Below, one piece after another: positions 163 to 19,691 of a stretch of DNA of 64,000 nucleotides (within the stretch, counting starts at the first letter, position 1; each line of letters starts with the position of its first letter). The DNA comes from Sphingobium sp. (lineage in GTDB: Bacteria; Pseudomonadota; Alphaproteobacteria; Sphingomonadales; Sphingomonadaceae). The notes beneath the pieces were generated by a model, which did not search any database, was not told the DNA's origin, and worked only from the letters and a program-made list of their open reading frames with translations. A program made the position numbers and the translations under genes. The stretch covers positions 1,011 to 65,010 of the forward strand of contig NZ_JBHIWJ010000008.1 in assembly GCF_041987595.1 (NCBI RefSeq). The letters are read 5' to 3'.

Positions 163-498
163 TTAGATATTAAGAAGGGCGTTGTCGGACCAAACATCCT
201 CATATCCCTCAGCGACCAGAAACCTCCAGCCCGGAGGCAGGGCTATGAACGGCAATGCCGCCGGACAATACTCCTCCAAATGGTAAACATGCAGCGGCCT
301 AAAAAAATCCGGGTCATCGGACCACTCTCCTGACCAGATGAACCATCCTGTCGTCCCACTTTCCGGTGGATGACGAAGACCATTGAGCGGCAACTCACCT
401 CGCAGGGCGCTCTCGGAAATACCGACCTTGTATGTCTCTTCGGACGGCATGAACTTTGCGCCATACCGCTGACATATCTCAAGCTGCATTTCATCCAT
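163..498 (-). CDS. Imm33/DUF2185-like immunity-domain protein, no cognate toxin visible
   Basis: 111-aa ORF. Motifs GWFIWSGEWSDDPDFF and LPPGWRF match my recollection of the Imm33 (former DUF2185) family. DNA is visibly AT-richer than the phage genes to its right. Confidence 0.45.
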   Translation of the reverse strand: MDEMQLEICQRYGAKFMPSEETYKVGISESALRGELPLNGLRHPPESGTTGWFIWSGEWSDDPDFFRPLHVYHLEEYCPAALPFIALPPGWRFLVAEGYEDVWSDNALLNI

Positions 499-631: not shown

Positions 632-1450
632 CTAGCGATCGTTCGCGGGCTGCGGGAAATTGCTGATTAACACTTCGCCCGCCTTGGTCGGCTTGCCGCC
701 GACGCTGTAGGTCGTGTCGATCCCGCTGATCGTGAAGCGGGAGAAGGTGTCCCGCACGCCCTCATTATCGTTCAAGGACATGAGGAACCGGCCTTTGATC
801 CCGGCCAGCTGATCCGCCAGTGCGGCAAAGTCATCTCGCCCGAAAACATCAGGACCATAGTCGCGCTCGCATGCCCAATAGGGCGGATCGAGGTAGAACA
901 GTGCGCCGTCGCGGTCATAGCGGCGGACGAAGTCGGCATAGGGCAGGCGCTCGATCACGACGGCTTGCAGGCGTTCATGCACATCGGCCAGCATCGGCTC
1001 GATCTTGCTGACGTCGAACCGCGCCGGGGCCGCCGCGTCCACACCGAAGTTCCGGCCTGACACCTTGCCGCCGAAGGCGAGGCGCTGGACATAGAGGAAG
1101 CGGACAGCGCGCTGCAGGTCGGTCAGGCGGTCAGGATCCTGCCCCAGCAGCCGCTCGAACTCGGCCCGGCTCGCCACGCGGAATCGCAGCATGTCGACCA
1201 GATAGGGATAATGTTCGGCAAGGCAGCGGAACAGCGTCACGACGTCGCCCGAAATGTCGTTGATCGCTTCGGCGCGGGGGCGGCGCGTGCGGCGCAGGAA
1301 GATGCCGCCCATGCCCACGAAAGGCTCCGCATAGCTGCTGTGCGGGACGCTATCGATGATGGCGCATATGCGCCGGGAAAGGTTGCGTTTTCCGCCGATA
1401 TATCCGGCGACGGGCGAAACGGGGCGAACGGGAACAAAAGGGGTAGACAT
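632..1450 (-). CDS. DNA adenine methyltransferase, D12 class (Dam-like), phage cargo
   Basis: YIGGKR near the N-terminus, FVGMGGIF (FxGxG SAM motif) and LDPPYW (DPPY catalytic motif). Start moved to the internal Met (MSTPFVP) at 1450, which has an upstream AGGA. Confidence 0.85.
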   Translation of the reverse strand: MSTPFVPVRPVSPVAGYIGGKRNLSRRICAIIDSVPHSSYAEPFVGMGGIFLRRTRRPRAEAINDISGDVVTLFRCLAEHYPYLVDMLRFRVASRAEFERLLGQDPDRLTDLQRAVRFLYVQRLAFGGKVSGRNFGVDAAAPARFDVSKIEPMLADVHERLQAVVIERLPYADFVRRYDRDGALFYLDPPYWACERDYGPDVFGRDDFAALADQLAGIKGRFLMSLNDNEGVRDTFSRFTISGIDTTYSVGGKPTKAGEVLISNFPQPANDR

Positions 1451-1500
1451 GTAGGAAATCCTGCACGATGTCCCGACGCGGCATGCCACGGAGGGAACTC

Positions 1501-1909: not shown

Positions 1910-4078
1910 TTAGACGCCGGTAGTGCGGACCCAAACCGTCACGGTGCGGTCATCAGCGTTCCAAAAAGTAATGCTGGTCGGAGGCGAACCGTTGATGGCA
2001 GTAACGCCGGTATTCTGCTGGATTTGAGTATTGCCGCCAGCCGTATTCACGCCATAGGTCGGATGGACCCAGGACGAATGCGCCGTAGGCAGCGTGTAGG
2101 TTGCATAGCTGTCCTGGCCGATCGTGATCGTGCCCCACGTTTCCTTCCGGCCGGACGCGTAAACGATATAGCCGCCGTTAGCCGTGAGGTTCTGAGAAAC
2201 GATGCGGTCAAAATCGGTGGCCTGATATCCGTCCAGCAAATCGGCGTCGAGGCCGGAACCAGAGCCGTCGTTGCTAGCGCGCCATACATTGGCGATCTGC
2301 TGGTCAAAGACAAAGGCCCCAAGATCAGTGACATCAACCTGCCCCTTTAGCCGCAGGGATGGTCCGTGCCATCCGATATAGATTTTGTTGGTGCCTTGAC
2401 CGGTTCCGCCGCCCTGCTGGACAGGCGTGAAGCCGAGGCGGCCAGCCACGTCGGAATAGTAGCTGCCCTGCTGGCCGTCGAGCAGATCGGCATCAAGGCC
2501 CGACCCTGCGCCGTCGTTGGAAGAATGCCAGGCAACGCCGCCTTGGATGTAGAAGGCGCCGCCATAAGCCCAATTCCAGACGCTGCCATATTGCGTATCG
2601 TAGAGGCCCAGTGCGACGTTGCTGGCATAGAGATAGGCCGTTTGACCAGCTCGCACGAACTCAACATGCTTCTCAGCGGTGTGAACCGAAGAAAAGACGA
2701 GGTTCCCAGCGCTGAAGGCCAACGTTCCCGACATGGTGTCCCCGGCCTTATTGACGGGTGTGTAGCCAAGACGCTGGGGGATATTTGAATAATAGCCACT
2801 GTCCTGACCGTCGAGCAAATCAGCGTCCAGCCCAGACCCTGCGCCATCATTGCCCGCATGCCATACAGTGGAGCCTCCCCATTGCAGCGTGCTATCCAAG
2901 GTGAGCCGAAGAGAGCCGGGCTGGATCAGAAGCCTAGTGTTCGCGCCCGACGAGGTATCTTCGCGAACGCTAAATGATGAACCGTCGGTGATGACGTGCC
3001 ATTGTTTCCCGGTATCGGTCTCCGACATCGCAATCCATGGCACCGCGCTTTCGAGCGTCAGCTTGCCCGTCATGGTGCCGCCAGTGACCGGAAGAGGAAC
3101 ATAGCCGAGGCGCTGGGTGATGTTCGAATAGTAGCTGCCGTCCTGCCCGTCGAGCAGATCGGCGTCGAGGCCCGAACCCGCCCCATCGTTGTTCGGTCCC
3201 CAAAAGACGCCCTGACCCTGCGATGACGCCATGCCAGCAGGTGTCAGCATCAAACCGCTGACGAACGAAGAACCGAAATTGTCCGTGGTGTATTGCAGGT
3301 GAAAATTGCCGCCACTTCCCGCGAGATTAGTCCCGATGGCGCGCCATTTATAGTTCCCGGTGCCCGAAAAATGCAGTTCCTGACTGCCGATTTTGGAGAT
3401 CGCGAGGTTGCCGGTGAAGGTGTCGCCCGCCCGATTTGCGGGCGTGTAGCCGAGACGCTGCGGGATGTTCGCATAGTAGCTGCCGTCCTGCCCGTCGAGC
3501 AGATCGGCGTCGAGGCCGCTGCCGGAACCATCCTGCGCCAGCAGCCACCCCAAGATTGCGGCCTTGGCGGCAACGGGCGTCAGGGCGCGCAGGGCGTCGA
3601 TACCGGCCTGCGCCTCTGCGACGGTCGCGAGTTCAACCACGCCTTGCCGTTCCGTCGTGGCGGGCGGGTTGAGGAAATTGGTGTCGCCGAAGGTCAGCAT
3701 GGTGGCGGCCACGTCGGCGAACTGCACGTCGATCGCGAGCAGCATGATCGCCTGCGCCGACTTTTCCAAGATGGCTTCCGCCTGCCCGTAAATGGCGAAC
3801 AGGGTGCCGTCGGCCAGATAGAGGGCGAAGCTGCGGACCGTGAAAACGTCCGCGCTCTCGTCGCGCACGATCAGATGGATCGTATCGTCGGCAACGACAT
3901 CGCCGGAGATCGTCGCGATGCGCTTATATTCGCCGGGCAGTGCCGTAATGCCGACGCCGGGAACAACGGCGGTGGCGGTAAGGCCGACCTGCGCGATGGC
4001 GACAGGTGCCGTGCCGGTGTTGCTGGCATTTACAAGCGCGGCGCGGCCCGCATTGGTGACGATAGCGGTAAGGGCCAT
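1910..4078 (-). CDS. Phage tail fibre protein (P2 gpH-like N-terminus, repeat-rich shaft)
   Basis: The N-terminus MALTAIVTNAGRAALVNA... resembles the gpH/tail-collar N-domain. GGAGGAA RBS precedes the ATG at 4078. Five GSGLDADLLDG repeats. Lies directly after gpI. Confidence 0.85.
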   Translation of the reverse strand: MALTAIVTNAGRAALVNASNTGTAPVAIAQVGLTATAVVPGVGITALPGEYKRIATISGDVVADDTIHLIVRDESADVFTVRSFALYLADGTLFAIYGQAEAILEKSAQAIMLLAIDVQFADVAATMLTFGDTNFLNPPATTERQGVVELATVAEAQAGIDALRALTPVAAKAAILGWLLAQDGSGSGLDADLLDGQDGSYYANIPQRLGYTPANRAGDTFTGNLAISKIGSQELHFSGTGNYKWRAIGTNLAGSGGNFHLQYTTDNFGSSFVSGLMLTPAGMASSQGQGVFWGPNNDGAGSGLDADLLDGQDGSYYSNITQRLGYVPLPVTGGTMTGKLTLESAVPWIAMSETDTGKQWHVITDGSSFSVREDTSSGANTRLLIQPGSLRLTLDSTLQWGGSTVWHAGNDGAGSGLDADLLDGQDSGYYSNIPQRLGYTPVNKAGDTMSGTLAFSAGNLVFSSVHTAEKHVEFVRAGQTAYLYASNVALGLYDTQYGSVWNWAYGGAFYIQGGVAWHSSNDGAGSGLDADLLDGQQGSYYSDVAGRLGFTPVQQGGGTGQGTNKIYIGWHGPSLRLKGQVDVTDLGAFVFDQQIANVWRASNDGSGSGLDADLLDGYQATDFDRIVSQNLTANGGYIVYASGRKETWGTITIGQDSYATYTLPTAHSSWVHPTYGVNTAGGNTQIQQNTGVTAINGSPPTSITFWNADDRTVTVWVRTTGV
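2228..3532 (-). repeat. Five in-frame repeat modules inside the tail-fibre gene
   Basis: N-D-G-(A/S)-G-S-G-L-D-A-D-L-L-D-G-Q-x-G-S-Y-Y-x-x-I-x-Q-R-L-G-Y-T-P recurs at aa 198, 312, 425, 536 and 618 of the 737-aa ORF (spacing about 112 aa). Near-identical ~44-nt stretches occur at 3131-3180 and 3477-3525. Confidence 0.9.
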
Positions 4079-4089
4079 GATTCCTCCGG

Positions 4090-4653
4090 TCAGGGGGCGG
4101 GAGTTTCGGGCGGCGCCGTGCAAGGCAGGCGGGCATAGATGATCGGGCGAACAGCCGCGATCAGGCCGATGCTGGCCTTGGCGGTGATGCCCTGGGTGAA
4201 GGTGAAGTGGCTGCGCACCGGCTTGGCGCGACTGACTTCGGCGATGACCTGATCGACAAAGGCCGCCGATGCGGGCGCGCCGTTCTGGTCAAGATTGAGG
4301 ACGAGGTTGAAGGTGTGCGGATCACCCTTCGGCTCCATCTGCCACCATTCGCGGATAGCGACCGAGCCGCCGAAACTCTGGACGACGGCGCGCACGGATG
4401 CGGCGGTGCCCTTCTGACGGGCGATGATGATGGCCTTGCGGACGCGCTCGCGCTTGACGCCTTCCGGCCAATCGCTCGACCAATTGTCGAGCGACAGCCC
4501 CCACGCCAGCCATGGCAACAGGGCGCTGGGGCAGTTGGACGGCGACCAGACGTCCCTGACCAGCACGGCGATGTCGAGCAGGCGCGCAATGACCTGCTCC
4601 AGCGCCTTTTCGAGATCGGTCGATGCCGGGGGCAGAATGGACGGATAGGTCAT
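4090..4653 (-). CDS. Phage tail protein I (P2 gpI-like)
   Basis: 187 aa. ...ALLPWLAWGLSLDNWSSDWPE...KRERVRKAIIIARQKGTAASV... is typical of gpI. ATGA overlap with the gpJ stop. Confidence 0.85.
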   Translation of the reverse strand: MTYPSILPPASTDLEKALEQVIARLLDIAVLVRDVWSPSNCPSALLPWLAWGLSLDNWSSDWPEGVKRERVRKAIIIARQKGTAASVRAVVQSFGGSVAIREWWQMEPKGDPHTFNLVLNLDQNGAPASAAFVDQVIAEVSRAKPVRSHFTFTQGITAKASIGLIAAVRPIIYARLPCTAPPETPAP

Positions 4654-5552
4654 TCGCCCGTCCCCGCGTAGCTGAGCGTGATGCCGGTGCAGTAAGGGGC
4701 CTGCTCGCGCGAGATCACGATGTCCGCAGCCGGGGACGTCAAGACGACATTCTGCACGCCCTCGACATGCAGGGCGGCGAAGATGCCCGATCGAGTGATG
4801 TCGCGGCCAAGGCGGTGGCTGGAGGCGACATAATCATCCAGCTTGGCGCGGGCCGCGTCGAGAACCACGCTGCCATCGGGACCGCTGAATGTCGTGATGG
4901 TGGCGTTGACGTTGTAATTGACGATCGCGGCGGACTGGACGGTCACAAAGTCGGTCAGCGGGCGGCGCGTTTCGTCGGAGACATAGGCGGCGACGGTGGC
5001 GATCAGCCCGGCGGACGCCGCGCCCGATCCGGTGCGGGACAGGACAGACACCAGAACTTCGCCGGGGTCGGGGCTGGTCGCGCTGGCGTCCAGCACATCG
5101 GGGTCCGCCGACAGGGCGTGGAAGATATAGGCCCCTTCCGGCCCAGCCACGGAATAGCCTTCGGGTGCCAGCACCATGCGGCGGCGGAAATCGGCGTCGC
5201 TCTCCATGACAGCCGGGATCCCCAGCACTTCATCCGCCGGGGTGATGGTCAGGCGAGTGATGCCGAACAGGGCGGCGATGTTGTCGAGATCCGCGCCCAC
5301 CGCATAGGCGGGCATGACGGCGCGGGCAGCGTCGTTGACGCGCTGGCGCAGCAGCTGGGCGAAATAGGCGAAGGTCTGGAGCAGCTTGGATGCCGGGTCG
5401 CTGTCCCGGCTCACAAATTCCGGCATCAGCGTCTGCATGAATGCGACGGCGTCCGCGTAGATCGTTTCGAAATCTAGCGGGTCGATTATGTCCGGCGCGG
5501 GAAGGCGCGACAGATCAACGGCGGTGAAGGTTGCATCGGCCATGGCCGCCAT
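4650..5552 (-). CDS. Baseplate assembly protein J (P2 gpJ-like)
   Basis: 300 aa, collinear with P2 gpJ as I recall it (LPAPDIIDPLDFE..., RLTITPAD, VMESDADFRRR, HRLGRDI..., ALHVEGVQ). Confidence 0.9.
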   Translation of the reverse strand: MAAMADATFTAVDLSRLPAPDIIDPLDFETIYADAVAFMQTLMPEFVSRDSDPASKLLQTFAYFAQLLRQRVNDAARAVMPAYAVGADLDNIAALFGITRLTITPADEVLGIPAVMESDADFRRRMVLAPEGYSVAGPEGAYIFHALSADPDVLDASATSPDPGEVLVSVLSRTGSGAASAGLIATVAAYVSDETRRPLTDFVTVQSAAIVNYNVNATITTFSGPDGSVVLDAARAKLDDYVASSHRLGRDITRSGIFAALHVEGVQNVVLTSPAADIVISREQAPYCTGITLSYAGTGE

Positions 5553-5582
5553 GTCGGGGCAGGCTATGGGGGTGCGCTATGC

Positions 5583-5612
5583 CCCTGTATTTGGACAGGC
5601 GGCTATCCAAAT
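5583..5612. promoter_or_regulatory. 30-bp conserved dyad element, copy 1 (candidate late-promoter or operator site upstream of J)
   Basis: CCCTGTATTTGGACAGGCGGCTATCCAAAT. Contains the ATTTGGA-N10-TCCAAAT dyad. 29/30 identical to 13135-13164. Sits 31 bp upstream of the J start. Confidence 0.5.
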
Positions 5613-5657
5613 GAAGACTTAGCGTGTGGATCAAAAGGCCGAGGGCCAAATCCCGTT

Positions 5658-6617
5658 TTAGAAGGAAGCCATTTCCCACTCGTCCCATGTGCCGGTGTTC
5701 AACAGTCGCCCACCGTCGATTCCTTGGCGGACTTCAGCGGAGAAAACGGACGGAGGCCAAAATTGCATTCCGCCCGATCCATTGCCCATGAGATCGGTCA
5801 GACGATAGTAATCAGCGATGTCCCGAATGCTGGGGTCAGTTTGTGCCAACCTTCTGGTAAGAGTGCAGATCATCGCACCTATCGGCTGAAAGGTGGTCTT
5901 CTGCCCGTCAGTTGCGACCGTCGCCCCAGAGAGTGATCCACCCACCCCCCATTCCCCGCCGAACAGTGTGCGCAAGGCCTGTTCTTCATTTGGCATCCAG
6001 CTTGCTCGATAGCAGGCCGCTAGCAAAGGTGCCCATGTGCCAACGTCGGCAACGCAGACAAGGTCGATCAAATTAGAGGGACGATTTGCGGCCTCTGATA
6101 CATTTCGTAAAGCCGTTTCGATATTTTCAGCTGGGCGCGACGCACCGGCCTTCCAAGCATGGGAATGTGCCAAGACACCGTATATAAGAGGGGAGCGCAG
6201 TTCTGCAGCTGGGCTGCCCAACCGGTTAGGGAATAAGGCCTTGAATTTAGCGCACCTCTCACCGGAAGCCTTGATGTGTTCAGATCGGAGGGTGGTTTTG
6301 CACTCGAAGGCGGCCGCCACACCGCCCGCTAACCAGACCTTCTTTTCGCGCAGCTTCAACGGATAGGAGGGTTTGAGCACAAGGACGTCAATTTGGGGAG
6401 ACATCCGGCCATCGGTCCCGATTATTCTGCCCTTGGTAGTGACGAAATAATGCGGCGGAAGCCATTCTCGCAGCAAAGTTGCCCAGTTTTCTTCCCCTTC
6501 ATCACCGGCTGTGCCGGGATCCTCAGCCGTTTTCTCGAATATGCGTTTGTATTCCGAGGCCATTTCAAGGGCGACTTGAGCCATAAATGTATGAAGGTCG
6601 TGGACTTTTTCACTCAT
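5658..6617 (-). CDS. PD-(D/E)xK (restriction-endonuclease-like) fold protein, DUF6602-like, prophage cargo
   Basis: 319 aa. Acidic helix GDEGEENWATLLREWLP, then SPQIDVLVLK...(27 aa)...AAFECKTTL, giving a D...ExK core. Low-GC DNA. Occupies the S/V junction of the P2-like late region. Confidence 0.55.
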   Translation of the reverse strand: MSEKVHDLHTFMAQVALEMASEYKRIFEKTAEDPGTAGDEGEENWATLLREWLPPHYFVTTKGRIIGTDGRMSPQIDVLVLKPSYPLKLREKKVWLAGGVAAAFECKTTLRSEHIKASGERCAKFKALFPNRLGSPAAELRSPLIYGVLAHSHAWKAGASRPAENIETALRNVSEAANRPSNLIDLVCVADVGTWAPLLAACYRASWMPNEEQALRTLFGGEWGVGGSLSGATVATDGQKTTFQPIGAMICTLTRRLAQTDPSIRDIADYYRLTDLMGNGSGGMQFWPPSVFSAEVRQGIDGGRLLNTGTWDEWEMASF

Positions 6618-6656
6618 GCGCGCTGCATAAGAGCATTCACATCGCAGTCCAAGAGT

Positions 6657-7328
6657 TTAGCCACTCGCAATCTGTTGATAGAGTAGATCCAGCAGCTGCT
6701 CGCGATCGGCGGCTGTCGCGCCGAGCAGTTCGCGCTTCAGATAGGGCACGGCTTGCGCCCGCAGGGAAGGCTTGTCCCGCAGGCCATATTGGTGGACGCC
6801 CGCGATCTGCGACACCTTGCCGGAAAAACCTACCCAGAAGCCCTGATCGTCCGTGCCGGTGCGCAGGAATCGCCCACTCGCCAAGCGCCGGAACATGGCG
6901 CGGCGACGCAGGCCACCCCGGCGGCGCAGGCTGCTGCCGCCCGCGTTGCGATGCTCCTCCGGGACCGGGAGCCATTTGACGACCTTGTCGAACTCGAATG
7001 AGCGGATCCCGCCCGCCTCAATATCGAAGCCGGTCATCATGCGGCCTGTCGTCCAGGCGAAAGACTTCATGATGACCTTGCGCGGCTCGACGCCGCCGCC
7101 GGATGGATAGAGGAAGCATGTCGCGCCCCGCCCCGGCACCGGCGGGGCCTTTTCCTTTCGCGCCTCGAATTTCGAGCCGTCAGGCTGGCGCTGGGCGGCG
7201 ATGCGCTCGCGCTGACTCTGGGCCAAGGTGCGGGCCATGCGGCGCATGAGGGTGCGGCGCTGGCCTGACGACAGGCTGCGGATCAGCGCCCCGGCAATGC
7301 GCTCGATCTCGGCAAGATCCTCGCTCAT
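6657..7328 (-). CDS. Tail completion / virion morphogenesis protein (P2 gpS-like)
   Basis: 223 aa, position after gpR with a 4-nt overlap. The pattern ...GQRRTLMRRMARTL...QRERIAAQRQPDGSKF...VHQYG... is typical of Phage_tail_S family members. Confidence 0.75.
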   Translation of the reverse strand: MSEDLAEIERIAGALIRSLSSGQRRTLMRRMARTLAQSQRERIAAQRQPDGSKFEARKEKAPPVPGRGATCFLYPSGGGVEPRKVIMKSFAWTTGRMMTGFDIEAGGIRSFEFDKVVKWLPVPEEHRNAGGSSLRRRGGLRRRAMFRRLASGRFLRTGTDDQGFWVGFSGKVSQIAGVHQYGLRDKPSLRAQAVPYLKRELLGATAADREQLLDLLYQQIASG

Positions 7329-7843
7329 GCGTTCGGCGGAATCGCCGGGGTCAGATCCGCGTTGGGATCGGACGTCTCAACCAGCAATTCTGTGTTGCCG
7401 AAGCCCTGAAGGAATGAGGCTGTGACGCCGTCGAAGGCGTCGCAGAAATTCGGCTCCGCCGGGTGCTGGACGTCATAGCCGCTGCCATCGGCGCGGGGCA
7501 GGACAAGGACGGTTTCGGTCAGGTCGATCGAGATCAGGATGTCCGACGCTTCGCTGTCGAGCAGTTCGGCCTGAAAGGTGAAGGGCTGGGCATCGGTGCG
7601 GCGCAGCAGCTGGGGCTGTTCCTTCTCGATCCATGCCAGCATCGGCACCATGATCGTGTCGGCGTCCCCGGCAAATTCCCAGATCCCGACCTTGAGCGTA
7701 TAGGCATAGACGAATGACAGCGTGCGGGACTGGCGCGTGCCGATCTGCCCGCCTTCCACATAGATCTGGAGGCGGTCAGGGTGGGTTTTCAGGTCGGGCA
7801 GGAAGGCGGTGAGCCACTGCCGCAGGCTGTCGGCCTTGCGCAT
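7325..7843 (-). CDS. Tail completion protein R (P2 gpR-like)
   Basis: 172 aa. The N-terminus MRKADSLRQWLTAFLPDLKTHPDRLQIYVEGG parallels P2 gpR (MLKPDSLRRALT...NPDMLRIFVDNG, from memory). Confidence 0.8.
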   Translation of the reverse strand: MRKADSLRQWLTAFLPDLKTHPDRLQIYVEGGQIGTRQSRTLSFVYAYTLKVGIWEFAGDADTIMVPMLAWIEKEQPQLLRRTDAQPFTFQAELLDSEASDILISIDLTETVLVLPRADGSGYDVQHPAEPNFCDAFDGVTASFLQGFGNTELLVETSDPNADLTPAIPPNA

Positions 7844-15067: not shown

Positions 15068-16113
15068 GCAAGCGCGCACGCCGTATGAACCGCCGGGAAT
15101 CGGCCGCAGCAGCTGACGGCGCGATCGTCGCGAGCAACGATAATCGCCGGGGCGTGGTCGAGGCGTTCACCTTCGGGGATCCTGAGCCGGTGCTGAGCCG
15201 GGCCACCATGCTCGACATGCTGGAATGTTGGGACAATGGCCGCTGGTATGAGCCGCCGATCGCGCTGGACGGCCTCGCCCGCGCGTTTCGCGCGTCGCCG
15301 CACCATAGCAGCGCCATCATGCTCAAGCGGAACCTGCTGGCGGCCAGCCTCGATCCCACGCCGTTTCTGTCGCGCAAAGCGTTCGCCGGTATGGTGCAGG
15401 ACTATCTGGTGATGGGGAACGCCTATGCGCAGGAGATCCGCAACCAGCTGGGCGGCGTGATGCGGCTTGAGCATCCCCTTGCGAAATATACGCGGCGTGG
15501 TGTCGAGCCGGGGCGCTTCTGGTGGGTGCCAGGGTATCGCAATGAGCGCGAGTTCGAGCCGGGGACAGTGCATCAGATTCTCGCGCCTGACATCAATCAG
15601 GAAATCTACGGCCTGCCTGAATATCTGTCGGCGCTCCAGTCCGCCCTGCTCAATGAGAACGCCACGCTGTTCCGCCGCCGCTATTTCGAGAACGGGAGCC
15701 ATGCGGGCTACATCCTTTATGCCACGGGCGAGTTCGCCAATGGCGACATCGACGCGATGCGCGAGGCGCTGAAACGCGCGAAGGGGCCGGGCAACTTCCG
15801 CAATATGTTCGTGCATTCGCCGAACGGGAAGGACGGCGGCATCAAGATCATCCCGATCGCGGAGGTCGGGGCCAAGGATGAGTTTCTGGGGATCAAGAAC
15901 ACGACGCGGGACGATGTGCTGGCCGCGCACCGCGTGCCGCCCCAGCTGCTCGGCATCATCCCGGCGAATGCGGGCGGCTTTGGCGATCCGGCCAAGGCGC
16001 TCGACAGCTTCTTCGAACTGGAGATCGAGCCGTTGCAGTCGGTGTTCCTCGACCTCAACGACCAGCTGGGCTTTGAGGCGCTCCGGTTCCTCAAGCGGGT
16101 GAAGGCGGTCTAG
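15064..16113 (+). CDS. Portal protein, P2 gpQ / PBSX family
   Basis: 349 aa. ...YGLPEYLSALQSALLNENATLFRRRYFENGSHAGYILY... and ...RDDVLAAHRVPPQLLGI... are typical of gpQ portals. Confidence 0.9.
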   Translation: MSKRARRMNRRESAAAADGAIVASNDNRRGVVEAFTFGDPEPVLSRATMLDMLECWDNGRWYEPPIALDGLARAFRASPHHSSAIMLKRNLLAASLDPTPFLSRKAFAGMVQDYLVMGNAYAQEIRNQLGGVMRLEHPLAKYTRRGVEPGRFWWVPGYRNEREFEPGTVHQILAPDINQEIYGLPEYLSALQSALLNENATLFRRRYFENGSHAGYILYATGEFANGDIDAMREALKRAKGPGNFRNMFVHSPNGKDGGIKIIPIAEVGAKDEFLGIKNTTRDDVLAAHRVPPQLLGIIPANAGGFGDPAKALDSFFELEIEPLQSVFLDLNDQLGFEALRFLKRVKAV

Positions 16114-16146
16114 TCGTCGCATCCCTCATGATCGGCGATCATGGAA

Positions 16147-16173
16147 GGCGGCCCGGTTTCGGGCCGCCTTTTT
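16147..16173 (+). terminator. Rho-independent terminator after the portal gene
   Basis: GGCGGCCCG-gttt-CGGGCCGCC followed by TTTTT. Confidence 0.75.
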
Positions 16174-16183
16174 CCTGCCTGTC

Positions 16184-16483
16184 CTAATCAATCACTATGT
16201 CAGGCGATGGAATGGAGGCGCGAAGATCAGCCGCGCTCACGCTCCATGCTCGCGCCAATGCTTCCAGTTCGGCGCCTGAAACACGATCGCCATATTCGAT
16301 GGCGGCGAAGCGCTGAGAAGGTATGCCCGTGAGCCGGGACAGCTTTACATAAGGGATGCATTTTTGCCGTTGCCAAGCGCCGAACCAGTTGCTGCCGGTG
16401 CGGATCGCATGGGCGACCGGATGATCCGATGAAAAGGTGTCGAGGATTTTAGGGATTGGTTGCTCACCCTTCCGTCGGCTCAT
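16184..16483 (-). CDS. XRE-family helix-turn-helix protein
   Basis: 99 aa. ...VKLSRLTGIPSQRFAAIEYGDRVSGAELEALARAWSVS... is an XRE/Cro-type HTH pattern. 4-nt overlap with the upstream 101-aa gene. Confidence 0.65.
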   Translation of the reverse strand: MSRRKGEQPIPKILDTFSSDHPVAHAIRTGSNWFGAWQRQKCIPYVKLSRLTGIPSQRFAAIEYGDRVSGAELEALARAWSVSAADLRASIPSPDIVID

Positions 16484-16785
16484 TCCACCAAGCCTCTCGC
16501 GTCGGCTGCAAAGAATGCCAGCGTTTCTTCGACCTCCTCGATCATTTCGACCCGCGATGCGACTGTAAGGTCATACTTGAGCGCATATTGGATCGCCGCA
16601 TCGATCGCGTGGACAGGGGACGCATAGCCGGGATCAAGGCGCCTGTAAGTGAATGTCGGATGGGGTTCATCCTTGCGTACCGCGATGAACCAAAGGTCAT
16701 CGCCAAATTCCAGTGCCACATCGGGCGCGGAAACAGGGGCCGGGGCAATAGCGGGTTCAGGGGAAAGATCGGGTTCTGGTTGCAT
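16480..16785 (-). CDS. Hypothetical protein, first gene of the LexA-box-associated two-gene operon
   Basis: 101 aa from MQPEPDL... with a strong AAGGAGA RBS 6 nt upstream. The longer 158-aa ORF version was rejected. No motif recognised. Confidence 0.6.
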   Translation of the reverse strand: MQPEPDLSPEPAIAPAPVSAPDVALEFGDDLWFIAVRKDEPHPTFTYRRLDPGYASPVHAIDAAIQYALKYDLTVASRVEMIEEVEETLAFFAADARGLVE

Positions 16786-16816
16786 CTTTCGTCTCCTTGC
16801 GAGTCGCATCGTTATA

Positions 16817-16831
16817 GAACAAAATGAGAAC
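16817..16831. promoter_or_regulatory. Alphaproteobacterial LexA (SOS) box, GAAC-N7-GAAC
   Basis: GAACaaaatgaGAAC sits in the 94-bp divergent gap between the 101-aa/XRE operon (ATG 16785, -) and the SRAP gene (ATG 16880, +). Confidence 0.65.
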
Positions 16832-16879
16832 AAAAGGGAGTCGATTGACTCTCGGCAAGGCGCATTACAGGCTATGACC

Positions 16880-17533
16880 ATGTGCAATAGGGCAGAACGC
16901 GGCGATACGCAGAAGGTGCTGAACCTGTTCGGCGCCCGACGCGGTGTCCGGTTCAATGAAGGGCCGCTGGAGACACACCCGGCTCAGCCCGGCACTGTCA
17001 TCAGGCTGGAGGACGGCCAGCGGGTGCTGGAACAGATGACGTGGGGATTTCCGCTCGCGCAGAAGAGCAAGAAGACGGGACAGCCGCTCAAGCCGAAGCC
17101 GGTGAATAATGCCCGCTTCGACAAGCTGGGTAGCTATTGGAAGCGATGGGCTGTGGATCCGCGCAACAGATGCCTGATCCCTACGGCGCGATATGCCGAG
17201 GCGGTCGGTGAAGCTGGCCGGATGACGGAGACCTGGCTTTCCGTGAAGGACCAGCCAATCTTCGCTTGGGCGGGCCTATGGTCGAACAGCGATGAGTGGG
17301 GGGCGGTCTATACCGGCGTCATGACCGACAATGCTCCCGAACTCATCGACATTCACGATCGGTCGCCGGTGATCCTTGATCCGCAGGAATGGGATATCTG
17401 GCTGCATGCCCCGCTGGAAGAGCTTTATCAGTTCGACCGGCCCTATCCGGCAGACCGGATGATTGTCGAGCATACGGCAAACCCTTGGTTCAGGAAGAAG
17501 GGCAGCGCTCCAATGGGGCCAGCCCTACTGTGA
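16880..17533 (+). CDS. SOS response-associated peptidase (SRAP / YedK-HMCES family)
   Basis: Start chosen so the protein begins MCNR (catalytic Cys2, the family hallmark). ...MTWGFP..., ...NARFDKL....W........RCLIP...Y.E, ...FAWAGLW..., ...DIHDRSPVIL... are typical SRAP motifs. Confidence 0.85.
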   Translation: MCNRAERGDTQKVLNLFGARRGVRFNEGPLETHPAQPGTVIRLEDGQRVLEQMTWGFPLAQKSKKTGQPLKPKPVNNARFDKLGSYWKRWAVDPRNRCLIPTARYAEAVGEAGRMTETWLSVKDQPIFAWAGLWSNSDEWGAVYTGVMTDNAPELIDIHDRSPVILDPQEWDIWLHAPLEELYQFDRPYPADRMIVEHTANPWFRKKGSAPMGPALL

Positions 17534-17725
17534 TCGACGGTTGAAGATCGCCCGTCCGAACATCGCGAAGGCCGCGATGAATATCCAGCGCATCGCGAAC
17601 AGAGCGGCCAGTGTGGCCAACGCTGCATCATCCGGTGCGCGCCAATAGGAAATGGCGAGCGCCGCGATGGTAACGGCGGTCAGTAGGGGCCAGAGCGTGC
17701 GGCGGTGCTGTGAGTTCAACGGCAT
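17525..17725 (-). CDS. Possible small two-helix membrane protein
   Basis: 66 aa from the internal Met (MPLNSQHRRTLWPLLTAVTIAALAI...). Weak RBS (AGGCGGA). Only hydrophobicity supports it. Confidence 0.3.
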   Translation of the reverse strand: MPLNSQHRRTLWPLLTAVTIAALAISYWRAPDDAALATLAALFAMRWIFIAAFAMFGRAIFNRRSQ

Positions 17726-18034
17726 GCAGTCCGCCTGATGCCGATCAGACGACGCGAGCGCAACCAAACCGCCATCGGGCGCGGGGGGAGGCCGCTGGCA
17801 CCCCTCAAAACGCGCTTTTCCCCCCGCCTCGCCCGCGCGCTTTTTATGTCCCTTTTGATGCACCACCGACACCCCCGGAAAGCGGCCTAGATCGTTGGCC
17901 GGTTACCGATCATCAGGCGGCCCGCGCTGATGCGTTTTGATGCACCCAGAGCGCCCTCTTTGGGCCGGTGCGACAATCCCGAAAAATGATGCTCCTTACC
18001 GTTGAAAGCGGGAGGGTCGGGGAAAAGGTAATCT

Positions 18035-18270
18035 CTATAATCTGCTGTCCAGAACTGCCGAAAAGTGGCGGGTTTCTGCCGTTTTTGCGGTTGGCCTTCC
18101 GCTATAATCTTCTGCAACCTCATAGGGGGTAAAACTATAATCCCTTTGAAAAGTAAGCCTTTTTTCGAGCCTCAAAATCACTCTTCAAAGCTATAATCTG
18201 GTTATAGAAAGATTATAGGTAATGTTAGCTGTAAACCATTGAATTTGCTCGATGGTTATAGATGTTATAG
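18035..18270. repeat. Convergent array of CTATAA(TC) / TTATAG repeats in an AT-rich non-coding region (iteron- or arm-site-like)
   Basis: CTATAATC at 18035, 18102, 18135 and 18191. The reverse complement GATTATAG is at 18211, and GTTATAG is at 18201, 18255 and 18264. Four perfect TATAAT hexamers lie in 160 bp of a ~65% GC genome. Confidence 0.8.
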
Positions 18271-18325
18271 TTTTCCCGACCCCTACCGGCTTACTAATCC
18301 TGTCCCGCCTGTATAGGGATGAACC

Positions 18326-19198
18326 ATGTTATCTGACCTGTTGAACATCTGGGCAGGGTTTGGCCCTGAGACAAAGGCCGCCCTGATCGGTGCGGTATCG
18401 ACATTGGCCGCTGCCATAGGAGGTTTCGGGGGCTTAATCCTGCAGGTCCGGTCGCAAGGCCGACAAAATCGAGCAAGCGTAGCAGAGAACGAGCGCCGTC
18501 GCTTGAAGGCTGCGATGTATGAAGAAAGCGTCGGGATCTGCAACGAACTAAGCGACAAGAATATCGATTACACTACAAAGTTACGAAGTGCGGGTACCCA
18601 GATATTGATGGCCGCCAAAGTAGGCGAGCTTGCCGCTTCATCAATGTCGCCCAACTGCAGCTTAATGAGCTTAAGGCAATCTTTCTATCAGTGCCACGAT
18701 GCTGCAGTGCGGTTCATCATAATGATCGAACGCAGACGGATCATAGATCCGCGTATGGCAGTTTTCCGCACCGTGATGAATGCGACACTCCACGACATGC
18801 GGCAGAATTTCGAACAGAGGATTGTCCCGATCGCGTGGCCCGCTTTCCCGACATTCGCGCCCGACGGCCGACAAAATCACTATGTTCCTCTCTCCGAGCA
18901 GAGCGCAGAGAAGATCAACCGAGATCTCACCGAGATCGCTGATCAGGCATCGGATGTTGGGTGCCACATCGAAGATTTTTTAGTTGAGATGCAAAACCAT
19001 CTCCTTGGGGATCTGTTCGGTCATGAGGTAGCGCACCGGGTTCCCCTGGACCGTCGCTATCGGGTCACGACGCTTAATGCTGCACCAGAGATCGAACGCG
19101 ATATCATGACGGAGAGTGAATGGGGGAAATTAGCTCAGCAAACTGAAAAGAACGTCCTGGCTGGCCTGACGGGAAAGGCTGAGGAGCTTCGGGAATAG
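18326..19198 (+). CDS. Hypothetical membrane-anchored protein, low-GC cargo
   Basis: 290 aa. One N-terminal TM (AALIGAVSTLAAAIGGFGGLIL), the rest predicted soluble. No motif recognised. DNA is about 50-55% GC by eye. Confidence 0.65.
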   Translation: MLSDLLNIWAGFGPETKAALIGAVSTLAAAIGGFGGLILQVRSQGRQNRASVAENERRRLKAAMYEESVGICNELSDKNIDYTTKLRSAGTQILMAAKVGELAASSMSPNCSLMSLRQSFYQCHDAAVRFIIMIERRRIIDPRMAVFRTVMNATLHDMRQNFEQRIVPIAWPAFPTFAPDGRQNHYVPLSEQSAEKINRDLTEIADQASDVGCHIEDFLVEMQNHLLGDLFGHEVAHRVPLDRRYRVTTLNAAPEIERDIMTESEWGKLAQQTEKNVLAGLTGKAEELRE

Positions 19199-19305
19199 TT
19201 CGGGACTCTCAGGTCCGCTCTGTTCCTCTCGTTGCCGATCTGTTCCGCAAATGTGCGCTTGACCGGAAGCCAAAATCGCCTAGAAGCGCCGGGAAATCCC
19301 CACGG

Positions 19306-19381
19306 GGGCGATTAGCTCAGTTGGTAGAGCGTCTCGTTTACACCGAGAATGTCGGCGGTTCGAGCCCGTCATCGCCCACCA
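19306..19381 (+). tRNA. tRNA-Val (anticodon TAC)
   Basis: Manual cloverleaf: GGGCGAT/ATCGCCC acceptor, GCTC/GAGC D stem, TCTCG-TTTACAC-CGAGA anticodon arm, GGCGG-TTCGAGC-CCGTC T arm, discriminator A, encoded CCA. Confidence 0.9.
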
Positions 19382-19691
19382 TCCCCTTGAAAAGATGCTT
19401 TTGCAGACGGGCCTCTTGCCCTATCATGACAGCGACCATTTTGGTGGAGGCACACCCGGTCATGTCTCTCACGGTCCTGTTTGGCGGTACAATTGCGCCC
19501 TTTCTGCTGATATTTTCGCCGATCACCCTGGCGAGCGTCCGCGATTGCCTGAACTGGGAAGCACCCGCCAAGGCAGCGAAGGCGGCAGTTGACCCGCCCT
19601 GCCGGAAAAAGCGGCCGCCCTTGCTGCTGATGTAAGCCATGCTTTTTCCGGATATTGCGGCGCAGCGTCAGCGCTGCTAATCGGTGCCGCC

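What the first reader, a model, noticed from the sequence alone, without database searches (positions are those of the whole stretch)
5553..6656. Low-GC PD-(D/E)xK-type gene sits where P2 baseplate genes V and W should be
In P2-type phages the interval between tail-completion gene S and baseplate gene J holds orf30, V and W. Here the whole 1.1-kb S-to-J interval is one same-strand 319-aa ORF (5658-6617). Its DNA is visibly AT-richer than the flanking ~65% GC phage genes. The protein has an acidic helix (GDEGEENWATLLREWLP) followed by SPQIDVLVLK...27 aa...AAFECKTTL, which is a D...ExK restriction-endonuclease-like core. From memory this N-terminal half resembles DUF6602-type proteins. The C-terminal ~170 aa match nothing I recognise. 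P2-like prophages are known to carry anti-phage genes at a few fixed cargo loci, and the S/V junction is the site of the non-essential orf30. This makes the gene a candidate single-gene nuclease-based defence or superinfection-exclusion function. Its insertion may also be what deleted V and W.
Basis: partly seen in the sequence, partly recalled or inferred. Interest (0 to 1): 0.7.

Follow-up and report, generated by a model that had tools for sequence, protein, structure and literature searches.

The report
Stand-alone NucC-like nuclease in prophage hotspot
A foreign, low-GC gene for a NucC-type DNA-cutting enzyme sits in a swap-prone slot between two tail genes of a P2-like prophage; it is most likely an anti-phage cargo gene, and it did not delete baseplate genes V and W, which this phage lineage keeps elsewhere.

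Summary
A 319-aa ORF (5658-6617, minus strand) fills the S-to-J interval, with GC3 0.58 against 0.71-0.83 in the flanking phage genes. It matches Pfam DUF6602 (E 1.6e-25). A confident AlphaFold model (pLDDT 96) matches only NucC, the cA3-activated CBASS/type III CRISPR endonuclease. The catalytic D77/E105/K107 motif is invariant across the family.

The claim that V and W were deleted is wrong. In 32 of 36 related phage contigs where V/W can be placed, the order is R-S-[gap]-J-I-H-Dam-V-W. V and W should lie just beyond the window's left edge.

The S-J gap is a cargo hotspot. In 60 relatives it ranges from about 80 bp (empty) to 6.6 kb, is low in GC, and its 110 ORFs fall into 97 sequence clusters. 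These include Septu, Dazbog and GmrSD components.

The same nuclease family occurs at three different hotspots of other P2-like prophages. It also occurs on plasmids, in a Vibrio cassette array and in restriction-modification islands, with no cyclase partner.

NucC's cA3-contact Arg53 and gate-loop latch are not conserved, and a family-specific extension of about 125 aa replaces NucC's C-terminus.

Best reading: a single-gene defence nuclease comparable to the validated DUF6602 system Damona. Function is untested.

The parts
5658..6617 (-). 319-aa ORF (the end coordinate includes the stop codon): a stand-alone DUF6602 / NucC-like PD-(D/E)xK nuclease.
   Evidence: ORF and translation. Pfam DUF6602, 1.6e-25. 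PADLOC PD_DExK 8e-22 and NucC effector 2e-18. PDB NucC sequences by phmmer, about 1e-8, and by family profile, about 1e-13. AF2 model pLDDT 96.1, pTM 0.93. The top 14 Foldseek PDB hits are all NucC.
6033..6602 (-). NucC-like nuclease core, aa 6-195 (N-terminal helix plus restriction-endonuclease fold).
   Evidence: The PADLOC NucC effector HMM aligns aa 6-195 to profile positions 5-193 of 244. BLASTP against a bona fide CBASS NucC from pBJAB0715 gives 28% identity over aa 14-195, E 2e-17. Foldseek alignments cover about 190-210 columns.
6297..6392 (-). Catalytic motif I76-D77 ... E105-C106-K107 (ID-x27-ExK).
   Evidence: It aligns to the NucC ID-x30-EAK motif (Asp73, Glu104, Lys106) (motif defined in 10.1101/694703). 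D77, E105, C106 and K107 are invariant in the 63-sequence family alignment.
5661..6032 (-). Family-specific C-terminal extension, aa 196-319. It is conserved across the ~320-aa family and has no match outside it.
   Evidence: Family members align over aa 5-315. Conserved residues include P245, R265, Y270, G278, W287, W311 and W314. Modelled confidently. NucC sequence and profile matches stop at aa 132-195. No separate PDB or BFVD match.
5617..6665 (-). The cargo module: about 1.05 kb with no DNA homology to otherwise ~92% identical relatives. It includes the last few codons of S, a 39-nt spacer, the ORF and a 41-nt 3' tail.
   Evidence: blastn against L008, L009, L012, L037, L024 and L025: homology ends at window 6666-6679 and resumes at 5613-5616. 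GC profile.
5589..5612 (.). Conserved palindrome (ATTTGGACAGGCGGCTATCCAAAT) marking the J-proximal edge of the hotspot. It is present in empty sites too.
   Evidence: Equivalent palindromes lie between S and J in the empty-site loci L013, L037, L047, L054 and L060. It folds as a 10-bp stem with no U-tract after it. Its function (terminator or regulator site) is not established.
6657..7328 (-). Tail-completion gene S: the upstream flank of the hotspot.
   Evidence: Pfam Phage_tail_S 3e-22. P2 S tblastn match.
4650..5552 (-). Baseplate gene J: the downstream flank of the hotspot. It is full length.
   Evidence: Pfam Baseplate_J 6e-27. P2 J aa 4-302 align at 50% identity.

Best explanation
The gene is horizontally acquired cargo in a hypervariable slot of a sphingomonad-type P2-like prophage. 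The slot lies between tail-completion gene S and baseplate gene J and is the lineage's counterpart of the P2 orf30 site. The gene encodes a stand-alone, Mg2+-dependent PD-(D/E)xK DNA endonuclease built on the NucC chassis, with active site D77/E105/K107. Canonical NucC is switched on by cyclic tri-AMP made by a partner cyclase. This ~320-aa family has no partner gene. It lacks the conserved cA3-contact arginine and the gate-loop latch, and it carries its own conserved ~125-aa C-terminal extension.

Most likely it is a single-gene anti-phage (superinfection-exclusion or abortive-infection) nuclease. It would be kept inactive in the lysogen, activated by an infection cue sensed through its own embellishments, and would then cut DNA.

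Shown here: the fold, the catalytic motif, foreign origin, the hotspot and its defence-rich content, repeated capture by mobile elements, and the absence of a cyclase neighbour. Inferred: nuclease activity, the activation mode, and the anti-phage phenotype.
For: Identity of the protein:
- Pfam DUF6602 and PADLOC NucC/PD_DExK.
- AF2 pLDDT 96. Only NucC structures match at E 4e-12 to 3e-10; type II restriction enzymes follow at E > 0.01.
- The catalytic residues are invariant in 63 relatives.

Cargo status:
- GC3 is 0.575 against 0.71-0.83 in flanking genes.
- DNA homology to ~92% identical relatives breaks exactly around the gene.

The hotspot:
- Of 60 related loci, 8 are empty (79-99 bp) and 49 are occupied (0.5-6.6 kb). 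Cargo GC is 0.43-0.63 against 0.59-0.70 in the flanks. The 110 ORFs fall into 97 clusters and lie on either strand (57 same, 53 opposite).
- Cargo includes PtuA (9e-181), PDC-M01A/B, DzbA, NsnA, PDC-S15, RmrA/capP-like, GmrSD_N, SIR2_2 and nSTAND.
- Near-identical phages (S 96-97% and J 98% identical) carry different cargo.

Repeated capture by P2-like prophages:
- A 48%-identical homolog sits in the same S-J gap in the opposite orientation in Sphingomonas sp. CBMAI 2297 (L147).
- A 46% homolog lies between Dam and V (L071).
- A 56% homolog lies at the portal-proximal prophage end in Brevundimonas.

Other contexts:
- Plasmids, next to a resolvase.
- A Vibrio metoecus cassette-like array.
- Mod-DUF6602-p383-Res clusters in Poribacteria.

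No conserved partner:
- Among 80 genome loci no neighbour family recurs outside those lineage-specific clusters.
- A CBASS cyclase, HORMA and TRIP13 from pBJAB0715 find nothing in the window or in 161 loci.

Precedent:
- Damona, a single-gene DUF6602 protein from the V. cholerae integron, has anti-phage activity, and its homologs are often in prophages (10.1101/2024.07.02.601686).
- The orf30 locus is a recognised site of foreign genes in P2-like phages (PMC3091744).
Against: - No experiment bears on this protein or on any member of its ~320-aa subfamily.
- PADLOC 2.0 has no stand-alone system model for it.
- Damona's sequence could not be obtained, so the two share only the domain as far as shown here.
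- No V. cholerae protein appears among the 120 nearest relatives in three searches. Damona is therefore probably a different DUF6602 subfamily.
- The hotspot also carries non-defence cargo: polysaccharide pyruvyl- and sulfo-transferases, alginate lyase, and Ros/MucR and Crp regulators. Location alone does not prove defence.
- No promoter was recognised in the 39-nt spacer. The gene is co-directional with the late operons, so expression in the lysogen is unproven.
- NucC's adenine-stacking Tyr81 is conserved as the invariant Y85, so a nucleotide ligand cannot be excluded.
- No isolated phage among 50,697 records carries a homolog.
Confidence: 0.6

Rival explanations
1. Orphan signal-dependent effector. 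The protein still binds a cyclic oligonucleotide (cA3 or another) at a trimer axis like NucC. It 'eavesdrops' on signals made by a host CBASS or type III CRISPR system encoded elsewhere, or on a phage-made nucleotide.
For: The NucC chassis, including the N-terminal helix, is retained. The residue equivalent to cA3-stacking Tyr81 is invariant (Y85). The conserved C-terminal part is rich in Arg, Tyr and Trp (R265, Y270, R272, W287, W311, W314), which would suit a nucleotide pocket.
Against: - The equivalent of Arg53 is H56, in a variable column.
- The gate-loop latch residues His136 and Tyr141 align to N131 and P136, in a loop 4 residues shorter.
- The NucC C-terminal segment that holds Thr226/Val227 is replaced.
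- No cyclase or Cas10 neighbour appears in the window or in 80 genome loci from many phyla. A mobile single gene that depends on a host-specific signal would rarely work after transfer.
Confidence: 0.12
2. Constitutive restriction-type enzyme. The protein is a solitary type II/IV-like endonuclease that directly cuts incoming DNA carrying (or lacking) a particular modification or sequence. Host and prophage DNA would be protected by their modification state, for example by the prophage's conserved Dam-type methylase.
For: After NucC, the next-best structural matches are type II enzymes (BbvCI, Bse634I, SgrAI, Cfr10I), but only weakly, at E 0.02-0.3. In Poribacteria the family sits inside Mod/Res clusters. 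The prophage encodes a D12-class N6-adenine methylase at 632-1489.
Against: - The Dam methylase is a core gene of the lineage, present in at least 24 relatives whatever their S-J cargo, and lies 4 kb away. It is not a cognate partner.
- Most family members have no adjacent methylase.
Confidence: 0.15
3. A nuclease that serves the phage's own lytic cycle. It would be expressed with the late operons to degrade host or competitor DNA, or would act as a decoy against host signalling defences, rather than defending the lysogen.
For: The gene is co-directional with S and J. No terminator was detected between S and the gene, and no recognisable promoter of its own was found.
Against: - The 48% homolog in the same gap of L147 is in the opposite orientation.
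- Hotspot cargo is split almost evenly between strands, 57 to 53.
- The gene is absent from nearly identical phages.
- Homologs are common on plasmids and in chromosomal RM islands with no phage around.
- An invariant catalytic triad argues against a pure decoy.
Confidence: 0.08
4. One reading: the insertion replaced V and W and left a defective prophage, or the protein is itself a lineage-specific baseplate component.
For: V and W are not detectable anywhere in the window.
Against: - The lineage's gene order places V and W after H and Dam (32 of 36 informative loci).
- Empty S-J junctions exist.
- The protein is a nuclease fold with no match to a virion protein.
- It is absent from the closest relatives.
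Confidence: 0.03

Closest known systems
NucC (CBASS type III and type III CRISPR cA3-activated DNA endonuclease; PDB 6P7O, 6P7P, 6Q1H, 6UXF, 7ZGV)
   Same: Same nuclease fold and N-terminal helix (Foldseek E about 1e-11 to 1e-12, probability 1.0). Same Pfam family, DUF6602. Same catalytic ID...ExK motif. The Tyr81 equivalent is conserved.
   Different: - 319 aa against about 240 aa.
- Only 28% identity, confined to aa 14-195.
- NucC's C-terminal approximately 50 aa (with Thr226/Val227) are replaced by a conserved ~125-aa extension.
- Arg53 and the His136/Tyr141 latch are not conserved.
- No CD-NTase, HORMA/TRIP13 or Cas10 neighbour.
- Found as a solitary gene on prophages, plasmids and islands.
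Damona (single-gene DUF6602 anti-phage system from the Vibrio cholerae chromosomal integron; Darracq et al., bioRxiv 10.1101/2024.07.02.601686)
   Same: A single gene. DUF6602 domain with secondary matches to Cas PD_DExK and CBASS nuclease profiles, the same signature as found here. Homologs are reported preferentially in prophages. A ~322-aa relative of the target sits in a cassette-like array in V. metoecus.
   Different: No V. cholerae protein is among the 120 nearest relatives of the target or of two Vibrio homologs, which suggests a different subfamily. Damona's mechanism is itself unknown.
P2 orf30 locus and other P2-like prophage cargo/defence hotspots (old/tin, Z/fun; Rousset et al. 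2022, PMC9122126; PMC3091744)
   Same: A non-essential, AT-richer foreign gene directly after tail gene S and before the next late operon. The slot is hypervariable between close relatives and rich in defence genes.
   Different: Here the slot is S-J, not S-V, because V and W have moved downstream in this alphaproteobacterial lineage. P2 Orf30 itself has no similarity to the target and matches no Pfam or PADLOC family. This hotspot in this lineage was not found described in the papers read.
Type II restriction endonucleases of the SgrAI / Bse634I / Cfr10I / BbvCI group
   Same: The PD-(D/E)xK core. NucC was originally related to this group.
   Different: Only weak structural matches (E 0.02-0.3, TM about 0.3). 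No adjacent cognate methylase.

Membership tests
Pfam DUF6602 / NucC-type PD-(D/E)xK nuclease domain | Match to PF20247 above the gathering score | tested here: met
   89.5 bits against a cut-off of 27, E 1.6e-25, aa 29-128 aligned to profile positions 5-104 of 104.
Pfam DUF6602 / NucC-type PD-(D/E)xK nuclease domain | Catalytic ID...E-x-K motif | tested here: met
   I76-D77 ... E105-C106-K107 align to NucC D73/E104/K106. They are invariant in 63 relatives.
Pfam DUF6602 / NucC-type PD-(D/E)xK nuclease domain | Restriction-endonuclease fold closest to NucC | tested here: met
   AF2 model pLDDT 96.1. The 14 best PDB matches are all NucC chains, E 4e-12 to 2.6e-10.
NucC (cA3-activated CBASS / type III CRISPR effector) | cA3-pocket residues Arg53, Tyr81 and Thr226/Val227 | tested here: not met
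   Arg53 aligns to H56 in a variable column. Tyr81 aligns to the invariant Y85. The segment holding Thr226/Val227 has no counterpart, because profile and pairwise alignments end at aa 132-195. This is a sequence-alignment test only; model coordinates could not be inspected.
NucC (cA3-activated CBASS / type III CRISPR effector) | Gate loop with the aromatic latch His136/Tyr141 | tested here: not met
   The latch positions align to N131 and P136, and the loop is 4 residues shorter. The family consensus there is R-x-G-S-P-x-x-E-L.
NucC (cA3-activated CBASS / type III CRISPR effector) | Encoded next to a CD-NTase (with or without HORMA/TRIP13) or a type III CRISPR locus | tested here: not met
   In the window the gene is flanked by S and J with 39-nt and 105-nt spacers. 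No recurrent cyclase-like neighbour appears in 80 genome loci. tblastn with the pBJAB0715 cyclase, HORMA and TRIP13 finds nothing (a single query set, so sensitivity is limited).
NucC (cA3-activated CBASS / type III CRISPR effector) | Homotrimer that hexamerises on ligand binding | not testable with these tools
   Only monomer prediction is available, and coordinates are not returned.
Damona (single-gene DUF6602 defence) | Single gene with a DUF6602 domain and no partner | tested here: met
Damona (single-gene DUF6602 defence) | Sequence homology over most of its length to the V. cholerae N16961 Damona protein | not testable with these tools
   The sequence is not in the held text or in the truncated supplement. 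Indirectly, no V. cholerae protein is among the nearest 120 relatives in three searches.
Damona (single-gene DUF6602 defence) | Anti-phage phenotype | not testable with these tools
   This needs an experiment.
P2-like prophage cargo hotspot (orf30-type locus) | Lies between conserved late genes, with both empty and occupied states among close relatives | tested here: met
   Of 60 loci, 8 have 79-99 bp, 3 have about 200 bp, and 49 have 0.5-6.6 kb. The homology breakpoints are at 6666-6679 and 5613-5616.
P2-like prophage cargo hotspot (orf30-type locus) | Content is hypervariable, compositionally foreign, and includes known defence genes | tested here: met
   97 clusters from 110 ORFs. Cargo GC is 0.43-0.63 against 0.59-0.70 in the flanks. 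PtuA, DzbA, PDC-M01, GmrSD, SIR2 and others are present.
P2 baseplate proteins V / W (or any virion protein) | Sequence or fold similarity to gpV, gpW or other structural proteins | tested here: not met
   No tblastn similarity. The only PHROG hit is a family of unknown function at 6e-5. No structural-protein match in PDB or BFVD.

The most novel reading that the evidence does not exclude
The ~320-aa family could be a NucC chassis whose cyclic-nucleotide pocket has been exchanged for a new built-in sensor, the conserved C-terminal extension. That would make it a signal-independent, self-contained version of a CBASS/CRISPR effector. It would detect a phage component, or an as yet unknown ligand, directly. 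It would spread as a one-gene module across more than 10 bacterial phyla and be captured repeatedly by P2-like prophages at three different hotspots. If so, it shows how second-messenger effectors and stand-alone defence nucleases interconvert. The S-J slot of sphingomonad P2-like phages (97 sequence clusters in 49 occupied loci) would then be a rich, unexplored source of further systems.
Probability: 0.25. Interest if true: 0.7.

Novelty: new variant of a known kind. Interest (0 to 1): 0.45.

Why it matters
If the inference holds, this is an uncharacterised and very widespread subfamily: 945 clusters at 50% identity, in Proteobacteria, Acidobacteriota, Planctomycetota, Poribacteria, Chloroflexota, Cyanobacteria, Firmicutes and Actinobacteria. 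It consists of stand-alone NucC-type nucleases that work without a cyclase. That raises a concrete question: how is a NucC-like DNase kept silent and then triggered?

The comparative result is also useful in itself. This alphaproteobacterial P2-like lineage has relocated V and W, and it has two late-region cargo slots (S-J and Dam-V) with rapid turnover. This extends the P2 hotspot concept, established in enterobacteria, to sphingomonads. It also provides about 100 candidate cargo families to screen.

For the scan, it is a caution. The gene order of a model phage cannot be assumed for distant relatives.

Tried and rejected
- V and W elsewhere in the window: tblastn with all P2 proteins found none. 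The explanation came from relatives, not from the window.
- Extending the window leftwards through the encoding contig: only a 1.7-kb, 100%-identical Logan contig was returned. V and W of this exact prophage could therefore not be shown. The first 200 nt of the window do not contain the start of V.
- Obtaining the Damona sequence: it is not in the main text, and the supplement is truncated before Table S7. Two further homology searches seeded from Vibrio homologs found no V. cholerae member.
- Homologs in deposited phage genomes: none (tblastn, 50,697 records). In IMG/VR, the scan seeded with the target found one distant hit at 36% identity; a further 46% homolog on a viral contig (L071) surfaced in the J-seeded scan.
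- NCBIfam: no family.
- Fusion partners: eight longer relatives (375-548 aa) have nothing but DUF6602 in Pfam.
- Promoter and terminator scan of 5400-6900: no sigma-70-like promoter and no convincing terminator for the gene. The hairpin after the stop codon is weak, and the fold of the whole intergenic region is not unusual (z = -1.6).
- A Dam methylase + nuclease RM pair: rejected because Dam is a conserved core gene of the lineage regardless of cargo.
- A separate structure search for the C-terminal part was not run. The whole-model Foldseek search is local and returned no credible non-nuclease match.
Full report
**1. The observation**

The window's left 16 kb is the late region of a P2-like prophage read on the minus strand. 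P2 proteins Q, P, O, N, M, L, X, R, S, J and I all find clear tblastn matches; P is 52% identical and J 50%. Pfam confirms R (7325-7843), S (6657-7328), J (4650-5552) and I (4090-4653).

Between S and J lies a single 319-aa ORF on the same strand, 5658-6617. The spacers are 39 nt and 105 nt. Its GC is 0.548 and its GC3 0.575. The phage genes around it have GC3 of 0.71-0.83.

P2 V and W have no match anywhere in the 64 kb.

**2. What the protein is**

- It matches Pfam DUF6602 well above threshold: 89.5 bits, E 1.6e-25.
- In PADLOC it matches the CRISPR-associated PD_DExK profile (8e-22) and the CBASS NucC effector profile over aa 6-195 (2e-18).
- It matches the sequences of solved NucC structures at about 1e-8. 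A family profile raises this to about 1e-13.
- An AlphaFold2 model built on 63 relatives is very confident: pLDDT 96.1, pTM 0.93.
- In a Foldseek search of the PDB, the 14 best matches are all NucC chains (E 4e-12 to 2.6e-10, probability 1.0, about 190-210 aligned columns). Type II restriction enzymes follow only at E > 0.01.
- Nothing credible matches in the viral structure library. PHROGs gives only an unknown-function family. It is not a virion protein.

The residues I76-D77...E105-C106-K107 align with NucC's ID-x30-EAK active site, Asp73/Glu104/Lys106, as defined by Lau et al. (10.1101/694703). They are invariant in the family alignment.

**3. How it differs from NucC**

NucC is about 240 aa. 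It binds cyclic tri-AMP through Arg53, Tyr81 and Thr226/Val227, under a gate loop latched by His136 and Tyr141.

- In the alignments, Arg53 corresponds to H56, which sits in a variable column.
- The latch residues correspond to N131 and P136, in a loop that is four residues shorter.
- Sequence similarity stops at aa 132-195. NucC's C-terminal segment is replaced by a ~125-aa extension.
- That extension is conserved across the family: relatives align over aa 5-315, and P245, R265, Y270, G278, W287, W311 and W314 are conserved.
- Only Tyr81 is kept, as the invariant Y85.

These are alignment-based tests. I could not inspect model coordinates or predict oligomers.

The family is large. There are 1,870 hits in the 90%-clustered database and 945 clusters at 50% identity, 334 of them at E <= 1e-30. 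It is spread at 40-64% identity over many phyla. This pattern is typical of horizontally mobile genes.

**4. V and W were not deleted**

I fetched 80 viral contigs encoding J relatives at 58-98% identity. I mapped R, S, J, I, H, Dam, V, W, FI and FII on them.

- In 32 of the 36 contigs where V/W can be placed, they lie 2.8-7.4 kb downstream of J on the same strand.
- The lineage's order is ...R-S-[gap]-J-I-H-Dam-[gap]-V-W-FI-FII.
- Only the two most distant relatives keep the P2 order V-W-J. Two others have an inverted V-W module.
- A genome locus from Sphingomonas sp. CBMAI 2297 shows the same order across a whole late region (L147).
- In the three closest relatives (J 98% identical) V begins about 4.7 kb after J ends. 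In the window that point falls just left of coordinate 1.

The window's first 200 nt do not yet contain V. I could not extend the contig.

**5. The S-J gap is a cargo hotspot**

Sixty of the loci contain both S and J.

- Eight have only 79-99 bp between them, three have about 200 bp, and 49 carry 0.5-6.6 kb.
- Cargo GC is 0.43-0.63, against 0.59-0.70 in the flanks.
- The 110 ORFs found there fall into 97 sequence clusters. They lie on either strand, 57 on the same strand as J and 53 opposite.
- Phages with S 96-97% and J 98% identical to the window's carry unrelated cargo.
- DNA homology to relatives that are ~92% identical ends at window 6666-6679 and resumes at 5613-5616. This delimits a cargo module of about 1.05 kb.
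- The J-proximal boundary is a conserved palindrome (5589-5612) that is also present in empty sites.

A scan of 49 larger cargo proteins finds known defence components: Septu PtuA (9e-181), PDC-M01A/B, Dazbog DzbA, NsnA, PDC-S15, an RmrA/capP-like M78 peptidase, GmrSD_N, SIR2_2, an nSTAND NTPase and AbiEii-like ATPases. It also finds polysaccharide-modifying enzymes and regulators. The slot is thus a general moron/defence locus. It is the functional counterpart of the P2 orf30 site, which the literature already lists as a place where foreign genes accumulate in P2-like phages (PMC3091744). Late-region defence hotspots are also reported for enterobacterial P2-likes (10.64898/2026.02.27.708500; PMC9122126).

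**6. Where the family occurs**

Independent P2-like prophages carry relatives at three different cargo sites.

- The same S-J gap, but in the opposite orientation: L147, 48% identity, GC 0.52.
- The Dam-V gap: L071, 46% identity.
- The portal-proximal prophage end in Brevundimonas, 56% identity.

Other contexts were also found.

- Acetobacteraceae plasmids, beside a resolvase and RepA.
- A co-oriented, small-gene cassette-like array in Vibrio metoecus.
- A Mod-DUF6602-p383-Res cluster in twelve mostly Poribacteria loci.

No neighbour family recurs beyond these lineage-specific arrangements. A CBASS cyclase, HORMA and TRIP13 query set finds nothing near any homolog. For contrast, an Acinetobacter plasmid protein that NCBI also annotates as 'DUF6602' is a canonical NucC inside a CBASS operon.

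**7. Comparison with what is known**

The closest experimentally supported analogue is Damona. It is a single-gene DUF6602 protein from the V. cholerae chromosomal integron with anti-phage activity. It shows the same secondary profile matches, and its homologs are reported often in prophages.

I could not obtain its sequence. No V. cholerae protein appears among the nearest 120 relatives in three searches. The target is therefore probably a different, longer subfamily that shares only the nuclease domain with Damona.

I therefore rate it a new variant of a known kind: a stand-alone NucC-type defence nuclease in a P2-type cargo slot. It is not categorically new.

**8. Mechanism and confidence**

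I am about 90% confident that the gene is foreign cargo encoding a NucC-type nuclease. I am about 60% confident that it acts as a partner-less anti-phage nuclease whose activation does not use cA3.

The rivals are listed with their tests: an orphan cyclic-nucleotide-gated effector, a constitutive restriction-type enzyme, and a lytic-cycle nuclease. The V/W-deletion and structural-protein reading is rejected.

Noticed in passing
window 163-498 (-), with Dam at 632-1489 (-): There is a second cargo slot. A low-GC (GC3 0.58) Imm33-like gene (PF24719, 3.5e-41) sits after the lineage-conserved Dam-type methylase, where relatives go straight from Dam to V (about 90 bp in L008). None of the 80 relatives has a homolog of it. 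In L071 this Dam-V slot holds a 46% homolog of the target nuclease.
   Followed up: partly
window 632-1489 (-): A D12-class N6-adenine DNA methyltransferase (PADLOC MTase_II, 5e-55) is a conserved core gene of this phage lineage. It is 80-95% identical in at least 24 relatives and always lies between the tail-fibre genes and V.
   Followed up: partly
window 5589-5612; loci L013, L037, L047, L054, L060 (S-J intergenic region): A conserved ~24-27-bp palindrome (CATTTG...CAAATG type) lies immediately upstream of J in both empty and occupied hotspots. It has a 10-bp stem and no U-tract. It could be the O-operon terminator or a late-regulator binding site. A similar CATTTG motif occurs near window position ~50.
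   Followed up: partly
window 1910-4123 (-): The tail-fibre protein H (737 aa) contains about six copies of a motif of ~40 aa ending in 'NDGAGSGLDADLLDG(Q)DGSYY...RLGYTP'. It diverges strongly from relatives (31-93% identity, patchy), consistent with host-range shuffling.
   Followed up: no
window 16113-19400: The portal-proximal end of the prophage runs up to tRNA-Val (19306-19381), which is probably the attachment site. It carries an SRAP peptidase gene (16649-17533) and low-GC ORFs with no family match, for example 18326-19198 (290 aa, GC3 0.60). The Brevundimonas prophage has SRAP in the same place, with the DUF6602 homolog next to it.
   Followed up: partly
L111, L114, L123, L126, L132, L134, L144, L146, L158, L160, L161, L164 (mostly Candidatus Poribacteria): A conserved cluster: HTH-M78 regulator, a ~990-aa N6/N4 methylase, the DUF6602 ~320-aa protein, a ~383-aa unknown protein (weak BrxHII-like hit) and a ~995-aa ResIII helicase. 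This is possibly a multi-gene RM-like defence system that uses this nuclease family as a component.
   Followed up: partly
L172 (Vibrio metoecus contig DBIEGV010000027.1), gene at 6001-6969: A 322-aa family member lies in a co-oriented array of small genes (DUF645, acetyltransferase, LprI, Imm49). The array looks like a chromosomal integron cassette array. attC sites were not checked.
   Followed up: no
L032, L033 (IMG/VR contigs, J 81% identical): In these relatives the V-W module is inverted and lies directly upstream of J, and R and S are downstream in reverse orientation. This is a further rearrangement of the late region within the lineage.
   Followed up: no
L007 (phage P2) 9439-10224: P2 Orf30, the classical occupant of the equivalent slot, matches no Pfam or PADLOC family and has no similarity to anything in the window.
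   Followed up: yes
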